NCBI GenBank assembly: GCA_043228905.1
Contig: JBHGNT010000010.1
Location: forward strand, 8,618,001-8,682,000
Direction of reading: 5' to 3'
Origin: Azolla caroliniana
Lineage: Eukaryota > Plantae > Polypodiophyta
DNA length: 64,000 nucleotides
Shown: positions 26,123 to 26,175 of the stretch, piece after piece
Layout of the letters: every line of letters starts with the position of its first letter
How positions within the stretch are numbered: position 1 is the stretch's first letter
Program-made: the position numbers and the translations under genes
Notes under the pieces: generated by a model
What the model was told of the DNA's origin: nothing
What the model saw: only the letters and a program-made list of their open reading frames with translations
Database searches by the model: none

Positions 26123-26175
26123 GGTCTTATGGCAAACATGTTTCGCTCTATATGAGCTCATCCGTGTTAAAGACC
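26123..26175 (-). ncRNA. Minimal type I hammerhead-ribozyme-like motif in the 5' pLTR
   Basis: GGTCTT..CA-CGGATGA-GCTCatataGAGC-GAAA-CATG-TT-TG..TAAGACC; palindromic ACATGT stem III. Confidence 0.7.

What the first reader, a model, noticed from the sequence alone, without database searches (positions are those of the whole stretch)
26123..26175. Hammerhead ribozyme with atypical CGGAUGA core in each pseudo-LTR
Seen at 26123-26175, 17634-17686 and, degenerate, 22348-22400 on the element's sense strand: stem I (GGUCUU/AAGACC plus a proximal helix), CGGAUGA, stem II GCUC/GAGC, GAAA, minimal palindromic stem III ACAUGU, and a GUU cleavage triplet. Established: PLE pLTRs encode minimal type I hammerheads thought to cleave as dimers. 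G at position 4 in all three copies departs from CUGANGA, so standard descriptors would miss it. Activity is inferred, not shown.
Basis: partly seen in the sequence, partly recalled or inferred. Interest (0 to 1): 0.75.

Follow-up and report, generated by a model that had tools for sequence, protein, structure and literature searches.

The report
Decayed ribozyme in dead Penelope retrotransposon
The odd letter in this self-cutting RNA motif is a one-off mutation shared by three related copies of a single broken jumping gene, while the rest of the family carries the standard motif, so this is likely ordinary decay and not a new kind of ribozyme.

Summary
The hammerhead is real. It lies on the minus strand in the pseudo-LTRs of an endonuclease-lacking, two-ORF Penelope-like element inserted in a tRNA-Phe array. 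G at position 4 is real in all three window copies but is not a family trait. All 40 of 40 family copies outside the window have U4. Genome-wide, 267 of 274 matching motifs have U4, and the only 2 with G4 are window copies. The three G4 copies form one clade (100/97): two flank one insertion with an apparent target duplication, and the third looks like a later duplication, so G4 is one event. Each copy also has an uncompensated helix break, one has G5A, and the ORFs carry a 1.2-kb deletion, frameshifts and stops. 15 of 40 outside copies carry other core mutations. Published mutagenesis finds single CUGA mutants of low activity. Stems covary across sister families, which supports a functional canonical hammerhead in the lineage. 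Verdict: a known kind of element, and the 'atypical core' is likely decay. Small residual interest: a G4 template was probably copied once.

The parts
26123..26175 (-). Type I hammerhead in the upstream pseudo-LTR; U4G at 26163, A-C mismatch in proximal stem I; predicted cleavage after 26135
22348..22400 (-). Hammerhead in the downstream pseudo-LTR; U4G plus G5A, stem II and 1.1-2.1 mismatches
17634..17686 (-). Hammerhead in a solo 3' end copy; U4G plus two stem I mismatches
25941..26662 (-). Upstream pseudo-LTR (5'-truncated partial tandem copy)
   Evidence: blastn
22138..22963 (-). Downstream pseudo-LTR / 3' UTR, with an internal ~260-nt duplication; ends at the same element position as the 17442 copy
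17442..17994 (-). Solo 3' end, probably duplicated together with ~650 nt of tRNA-array flank (16794-17994 vs 21490-22712, 92.1%)
26195..26201 (-). TATA box 37 nt before C3; predicted to start transcription at the 5' edge of stem I (inferred)
   Evidence: a TATA at 34-42 nt in 27 of 30 hammerheads examined
25970..25980 (-). Variant of the CGCACTCCTTG motif found ~30 nt before the 3' terminus in several sister families; candidate RT-start signal (inferred)
24344..25964 (-). ORF1 remnant, frameshifted, C-terminus deleted
   Evidence: tblastn/blastn against intact relative L062
22907..24342 (-). ORF2 (PLE reverse transcriptase) remnant: N-terminus and frameshift signal removed by a ~1.2-kb deletion at 24343, two frameshifts, at least three in-frame stops, no GIY-YIG
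   Evidence: intact relative hits Pfam RVT_1
22112..22139 (+). Left copy of an apparent target-site duplication (21 of 28 columns match 26656-26682)
26656..26682 (+). Right copy of the apparent target-site duplication, about 50 nt upstream of tRNA-Phe
26729..26801 (+). tRNA-Phe(GAA), last unit of the 560-610 nt tandem array that hosts the insertion

Best explanation
The motif is a type I hammerhead of an endonuclease-lacking Penelope-like retrotransposon family whose normal core is CUGAUGA, and the G at position 4 is a single private mutation, likely inactivating, inherited by three related copies of one now-broken insertion. How the intact family likely works (inferred): a TATA promoter in the pseudo-LTR starts RNA at the hammerhead. 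Two hammerheads pair through the ACAUGU palindrome, each core cutting the partner's GUU site, which trims the transcript to unit length. ORF2 (RT) is made by a -1 frameshift from ORF1 and primes near a conserved motif about 150 nt downstream of the cut, at a DNA break or telomere end. In the window, a template already carrying G4 was likely copied once into the tRNA-Phe array, giving both pseudo-LTRs. The 3' end was then duplicated with its flank, and each copy decayed on its own.
For: Shown: U4 in 40 of 40 outside family copies and G4 in 3 of 3 window copies. A G4-biased pattern with one mismatch returns 30 sites, of which only the 3 window sites have G4. Genome-wide 267 U4 vs 2 G, 4 C, 1 A. 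G4 copies are one side of a branch, 100/97, one change, and share other private marks. The apparent target duplication encloses both pseudo-LTRs. Every window copy has an uncompensated helix mismatch, while sister L003 has none. The two pseudo-LTRs differ at 18 of 271 sites, against 99.9% identity in a young tandem pair, L047. The ORFs are broken. 15 of 40 outside copies have other invariant-core changes (C3U, G5A/U, G12A), so dead cores are common here. A tandem U4C pair with a shared broken ORF2 (L056) is a parallel case. Contigs of 6 other runs that cover position 4 show only U4 (contigs drop rare variants). Canonical stems covary across 22 sister sequences: 99.5% paired, 11 double-change cells, covariation 0.182 vs 0.080 shuffled. 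Literature: all single and double CUGA-region mutants except the C3-G8 swap had low activity (PMC9901934, passages). Hammerhead-dead PLE RNA still inserts in vitro (PMC11167929, main text).
Against: No activity was measured. G4 is in both pseudo-LTRs of one insertion, so a G4 RNA was probably a template once, unless gene conversion copied it. A natural U4C variant keeps enough activity in vivo for viroid infectivity (PMC3088659, passage), so position 4 is not absolutely intolerant. No copy outside the window shows U4 changed (0 of 40), so this is a rarer class of change than the C-to-T/G-to-A ones. The target duplication is degenerate, and both flanks are units of the same array. The tree's bootstrap had not fully settled (correlation 0.976).
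Confidence: 0.88

Rival explanations
1. The G4 core is a functional natural hammerhead variant maintained in a small subfamily.
For: G4 is in all three window copies and on both sides of the ORFs. The 26123 copy keeps stem II, GAAA, the palindrome and GUU. Natural U4C is tolerated in a viroid (PMC3088659).
Against: One clade, one locus. No second G4 locus in 523 Mb under three patterns. No compensating change. All three copies carry further helix breaks. Mutational scanning shows no rescue for CUGA mutants (PMC9901934).
Confidence: 0.05
2. The G4 core is dead, but its GUU site was cut in trans by pairing with canonical U4 transcripts through the shared ACAUGU palindrome, which let a G4 RNA be processed and mobilised once.
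For: The palindrome is identical in 39 of 40 outside copies and self-pairs at about -4.6 kcal/mol. In a dimer each core cuts the partner's site (PMC4209133, Fig. 1 legend and text). G4 is in both pseudo-LTRs.
Against: Not needed: uncleaved RNA is the dominant substrate in the one PLE tested in vitro (PMC11167929). No RNA data. It is compatible with the best explanation (G4 still dead) and only adds a step.
Confidence: 0.2
3. G4 arose in DNA after insertion and spread to the other pseudo-LTR by gene conversion or unequal crossing-over within the tRNA array, so no G4 RNA was ever a template.
For: The host array shows frequent unit duplication, and 22348 and 17634 share 8 further derived states.
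Against: Several private marks spread over more than 200 nt are shared by all three copies, while 22348 and 17634 share 8 later ones that 26123 lacks. That fits inheritance from a diverged donor better than repeated conversion. No donor was found in the assembly.
Confidence: 0.25

Closest known systems
Canonical type I hammerheads in pseudo-LTRs of EN-deficient PLEs of Selaginella moellendorffii (Cervera and de la Pena 2014, PMC4209133; parts 1-2 of 4 read, figures not seen)
   Same: Plant EN-minus PLE; type I hammerhead in both pseudo-LTRs; short palindromic helix III; similarity to the Schistosoma/human motif (here best Rfam match HH9).
   Different: Another plant lineage; most copies found here are interstitial, not telomeric; the window copies are mutated at U4.
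EN-minus PLEs of the Athena/Coprina type as summarised in Craig et al. 2021 (PMC8557442; passages, section 9 and supplement search)
   Same: No endonuclease; ORF1 separated from the RT ORF by a frameshift (A-AAA-AAC plus stem-loop in 8 of 8 junctions examined); hammerhead near the 3' end; some relatives carry CCCTAAA-like runs after the hammerhead or abut telomeric repeats.
   Different: The window's family has no reverse-telomeric run at its 3' end and sits 8.6 Mb into a 22.3-Mb contig. Clade placement against named Coprina RTs was not tested.
Natural hammerhead core variants (Perreault et al. 2011, PMC3088659; passages and section 8)
   Same: Single departures from CUGANGA occur in nature, including U4C in a viroid.
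   Different: Those were assayed and some are active. Here the variant is one event in a decayed copy; U4G is not named in the text I read.
PLE-X / Chlamys EN-minus elements of Chara and Selaginella (PMC8557442)
   Same: Plant, EN-minus, canonical hammerhead.
   Different: They have a CxC motif and a long N-terminal extension. The intact ORF2 here (661 aa) has no C-x-C and is preceded by a frameshifted ORF1.

Membership tests
Type I hammerhead ribozyme (Rfam clan CL00010) | Core C3-U4-G5-A6-N7-G8-A9 | tested here: not met
   Window copies: G4 in 3 of 3, also A5 in 1. Met by the family: CUGAUGA in 28 of 42 copies parsed, U4 in 40 of 40 outside copies.
Type I hammerhead ribozyme (Rfam clan CL00010) | G12-A13-A14, A15.1-U16.1 pair and NUH cleavage triplet | tested here: met
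   GAAA and GUU in 3 of 3 window copies.
Type I hammerhead ribozyme (Rfam clan CL00010) | Helices I and II closing the core | tested here: inconclusive
   Complete in sister L003; 1, 2 and 2 non-pairs in 26123, 17634 and 22348.
Type I hammerhead ribozyme (Rfam clan CL00010) | Covariation of helices among relatives | tested here: met
   22 sister sequences: stem II U-A 14 / C-G 8; palindrome centre UA 19 / AU 3; distal stem I swaps GGUCUU/AAGACC for GACCUU/AAGGUC and others. 21 of the 22 rows have U4, one has C4, none G4. Cells count sequences, not events.
Type I hammerhead ribozyme (Rfam clan CL00010) | Rfam gathering score | tested here: not met
   HH9 20.1 bits vs 52 for 26123; canonical kin score 24.2-27.3, also below; the other two window copies gave no hit.
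Type I hammerhead ribozyme (Rfam clan CL00010) | Self-cleavage at H17 | not testable with these tools
   Needs an in vitro assay or RNA end mapping.
EN-minus Penelope-like element (Athena/Coprina type) | PLE-type reverse transcriptase | tested here: met
   Intact relative hits Pfam RVT_1 (E 6.8e-5, below curated cut-off); 114 homologues, many of them RT+GIY-YIG proteins; DK, FDVESLYP and YIDD motifs.
EN-minus Penelope-like element (Athena/Coprina type) | No GIY-YIG endonuclease | tested here: met
   ORF2 ends after the thumb; no Pfam hit; 0 of the 24 closest homologues carry PF01541.
EN-minus Penelope-like element (Athena/Coprina type) | Partial tandem with pseudo-LTRs and hammerhead near the 3' end | tested here: met
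EN-minus Penelope-like element (Athena/Coprina type) | ORF1 joined to the RT ORF by a frameshift signal | tested here: met
   8 of 8 junctions examined in relatives; deleted in the window copy. Pseudoknot not tested.
EN-minus Penelope-like element (Athena/Coprina type) | Reverse-complement telomeric repeats at the 3' end and telomeric location | tested here: inconclusive
   Absent from the window family's 3' end and the window is interstitial. Present in relatives L050, L052, L091. L100 lies next to a terminal repeat array; L061 is capped by (CCCTAAA)6.
EN-minus Penelope-like element (Athena/Coprina type) | RT tree placement within Coprina | not tested
   No named reference RTs were available as stored sequences.
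PLE-X / Naiad-Chlamys | CxC motif N-terminal to RT | tested here: not met
   No C-x-C in the 661-aa ORF2 of L062 as printed (read by eye).

The most novel reading that the evidence does not exclude
The CGGAUGA core still self-cleaves as a palindrome-linked dimer and supported a real retrotransposition, which would make it a natural active U4G hammerhead.
Probability: 0.05. Interest if true: 0.5.

Novelty: new member of a known kind. Interest (0 to 1): 0.14.

Why it matters
As found, little: hammerheads in plant PLE pseudo-LTRs are known, and this variant is likely a dead copy. It is a useful caution that a change shared by neighbouring repeat copies can be one event. Two modest points remain. 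Both pseudo-LTRs of one insertion carry the mutation, a possible genomic record that an EN-minus PLE can be copied with a crippled hammerhead, in line with in vitro work on an animal PLE. And the genome holds a large, partly intact set of EN-minus PLE families (at least 267 canonical hammerheads, near-identical tandem copies, interstitial insertions with target duplications) that would suit tests of hammerhead function.

Tried and rejected
Plus-strand reading: it folds well (z -3.4) because the stems are near-palindromic, but it has no core and no descriptor hit. Assembly error as the source of G4: rejected, since it is in three copies and in a contig of run X1. Search for a second G4 locus: none. 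Search for another copy with the 1.2-kb deletion junction: only the window. Pfam scan of the four broken window ORF pieces: nothing above cut-off. The first chance test had a regex fault and returned 0 hits (part 2); it was redone. In one search the 5' half of the alignment was not homologous in two relatives, so only columns after about 340 were used. In one search, four of the five 'shared private' columns lie at a block junction and were not counted; the tree used 36 of the 43 copies (those in which both blocks were found). Expression: no RNA holder listed; contigs cannot show cleavage ends. PLE-X/Chlamys membership rejected (no CxC). A paper search for 'hammerhead ribozyme' with U4G/U4C/U4A (23 of 28 listed) showed no paper with both hammerhead and U4G; PMC11014351 has no U4G. 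This is weak evidence of absence, as subscription papers are missing. The primary papers on telomeric EN-minus PLEs were not held.

Full report
Observation. The stated coordinates hold a type I hammerhead on the minus strand. Rfam sees it weakly as Hammerhead_HH9 (20.1 bits, E 2.7). A descriptor with position 4 left free finds 2 sites in the window against 0.02 per shuffle in 200 dinucleotide shuffles, so the motif is not chance. Position 4 is G in all three copies, but only two read CGGAUGA; 22348 reads CGAAUGA. None of the three has complete helices. Scored against the active fold, 26123 has one non-pair, 17634 two and 22348 two, while the closest outside copy L003 has none. Folding z-scores follow the same order: L003 -2.4, 26123 -2.1, 17634 -0.9, 22348 -0.6.

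Setting. The motifs sit in direct repeats at 25941-26662, 22138-22963 and 17442-17994. The first two flank a decayed coding region. An intact relative (L062) has a 768-aa ORF1 frame and a 661-aa ORF2 that hits Pfam RVT_1 and has no GIY-YIG. None of its 24 closest database homologues carries PF01541, and the closest named ones are from Cryptomeria japonica at about 40% identity. In 8 of 8 relatives examined, the ORF1/ORF2 junction has an A-AAA-AAC heptamer followed by a stem-loop, a predicted -1 frameshift. This is the architecture given for EN-minus PLEs in PMC8557442 (figure legend and passages). The window copy has lost about 1.2 kb, including that junction, and has frameshifts and stops in both ORFs. 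It lies in a tandem tRNA-Phe array, 8.6 Mb into a 22.3-Mb contig. An earlier unreviewed note on this genome calls the host a fern; I did not test that.

Is G4 a family trait? No. A genome search with the pseudo-LTR gave 42 matches from 40 of 433 candidates scored. From those and three pattern hits I aligned 43 hammerhead copies. All 40 outside the window have U4, and the 3 inside have G4. Exact patterns agree: 26 with U4 against 2 with any other base, both in the window. A G4-biased pattern allowing one mismatch returns 30 sites, and only the 3 window sites have G4. Across all related families, 267 of 274 sites have U4, 4 have C, 2 have G (the window) and 1 has A; these patterns see only otherwise well-kept motifs. 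In public runs, contigs of six runs covering the position show only U4. A seventh (X1, possibly the assembly's sample) has a major U4 contig and a minor one with G4 plus the private changes of the 22348 copy; an eighth did not cover the position. Contigs drop rare variants.

Are the three G4 copies independent? No. In a tree of 36 copies they form one side of a branch with 100/97 support and one change of the label, nested beside three U4 copies (bootstrap rough). They share other private marks, and 22348 and 17634 share 8 more. The 17634 copy matches the 22348 copy together with about 650 nt of array flank (92.1% over 1228 nt), which points to a later duplication. The flanks of the main insertion match at 21 of 28 columns, consistent with one target duplication around both pseudo-LTRs, although both flanks are array units. 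So G4 is most simply one mutation. The two pseudo-LTRs now differ at 18 of 271 sites, whereas a tandem pair of a sister family is 99.9% identical, so the insertion is old.

Is G4 likely to work? Established: in full pairwise mutagenesis of a hammerhead, all single and double mutants of the CUGA region had low activity except the C3-G8 swap (PMC9901934, passages; U4G not itemised in what I read). Against my reading, a natural U4C variant is weak in vitro yet sufficient for viroid infectivity (PMC3088659, passage). Here there is no compensating change. Dead cores are common in the family: 15 of 40 outside copies have C3U, G5A/U or G12A. A parallel exists at L056, where tandem copies share U4C and a broken ORF2.

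The canonical motif is under selection in the lineage. Across 22 distinct sister sequences (chosen from 43 distinct ones, leaving out visibly decayed copies), the nine scored pairs are 99.5% paired. Stem II switches U-A to C-G in 8, and the palindrome centre switches UA to AU in 3; these count sequences, not events. The distal stem I also swaps wholesale. A TATA box lies 34-42 nt before C3 in 27 of 30 hammerheads examined.

Mechanism. Shown: anatomy, copy relationships, decay. Inferred: transcription from the pseudo-LTR TATA; dimer cleavage through ACAUGU (model in PMC4209133, parts 1-2 read); frameshift translation of RT; priming near a conserved motif about 30 nt before the 3' terminus (internal initiation is shown for an animal PLE in PMC11167929). 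Because both pseudo-LTRs carry G4, a G4 template was probably copied once. That needs no G4 activity: hammerhead-dead RNA inserts normally in vitro for the anole element (PMC11167929, main text), a canonical partner could cut in trans, or conversion could have copied the change. No donor was found.

Novelty. Hammerheads in plant EN-minus PLE pseudo-LTRs are published (PMC4209133). This is a new member of that kind, and the claimed variant core is likely decay. I found no report of a natural U4G. Subscription papers, the primary telomeric-PLE papers and figure or supplement content of PMC4209133 and PMC3088659 were not seen and may bear on this. Also seen: abstract of 10.64898/2026.07.22.740005 and passages of PMC12477314; neither changes the verdict. 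Hammerhead numbering and the names Coprina Sm1/Sm2 are recalled or taken from notes, not from a test.

Noticed in passing
L062:4701, L061:6660, L047:3759, L049:2666, L052:3787, L045:4301, L057:4969, L056:7402: Conserved A-AAA-AAC slippery heptamer, 5-nt spacer and stem-loop at the ORF1/ORF2 junction in 8 of 8 relatives examined: predicted -1 frameshift in plant EN-minus PLEs.
   Followed up: partly
L048:2245-2363 and 5640-5758: Interstitial EN-minus PLE with a perfect 119-bp flanking duplication and an inverted 5' piece starting with (TTTAGGG)3, suggesting insertion at staggered breaks without its own endonuclease.
   Followed up: no
window 26656-26801; L009, L017 (tRNA-Asp); L091 (tRNA-Glu); L089 (tRNA-Met); L011 (tRNA-Pro): Several insertions lie in or beside tRNA genes or arrays: 4 of 30 loci, 2 of 23, 0 of 20. 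No genome-wide expectation was computed, so bias is untested.
   Followed up: partly
L061:5181-5508: Two 5'-truncated elements of different families joined head to head through telomeric repeats on both sides of a short duplicated piece.
   Followed up: no
L100:1-6100: Element next to a 3.7-kb terminal (CCCTAAA)n array but reading towards the chromosome end and cut inside ORF1, as if a break was healed by telomerase.
   Followed up: no
L081-L096, L098: Many canonical hammerheads (often GCCC/GGGC stem II) with no hit to this RT within the 6-9 kb fetched: truncated ends, non-autonomous elements or more distant families.
   Followed up: no
window 25970-25980; L045-L062, L092: CGCACTCCTTG motif about 30 nt before the 3' terminus, shared by otherwise unlike families; also noted in earlier finding e1-10619883.
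   Followed up: partly
window 2700-22100 and 62000-64000: Tandem array of at least 22 units of 560-610 nt, each with a tRNA-Phe(GAA) gene or relic, interrupted by LTR retrotransposon remnants; one inverted unit near 63619-63926.
   Followed up: no
L049/L050 (C22, C400), L052 (C32), L047 (C29): Near-identical head-to-tail arrays of sister families with mostly intact ORFs at 4.7-6.1 kb period: likely recently active.
   Followed up: partly
P0017-P0024: Related endonuclease-free RTs annotated as uncharacterised proteins in Cryptomeria japonica and a record named Gb_11119.
   Followed up: no
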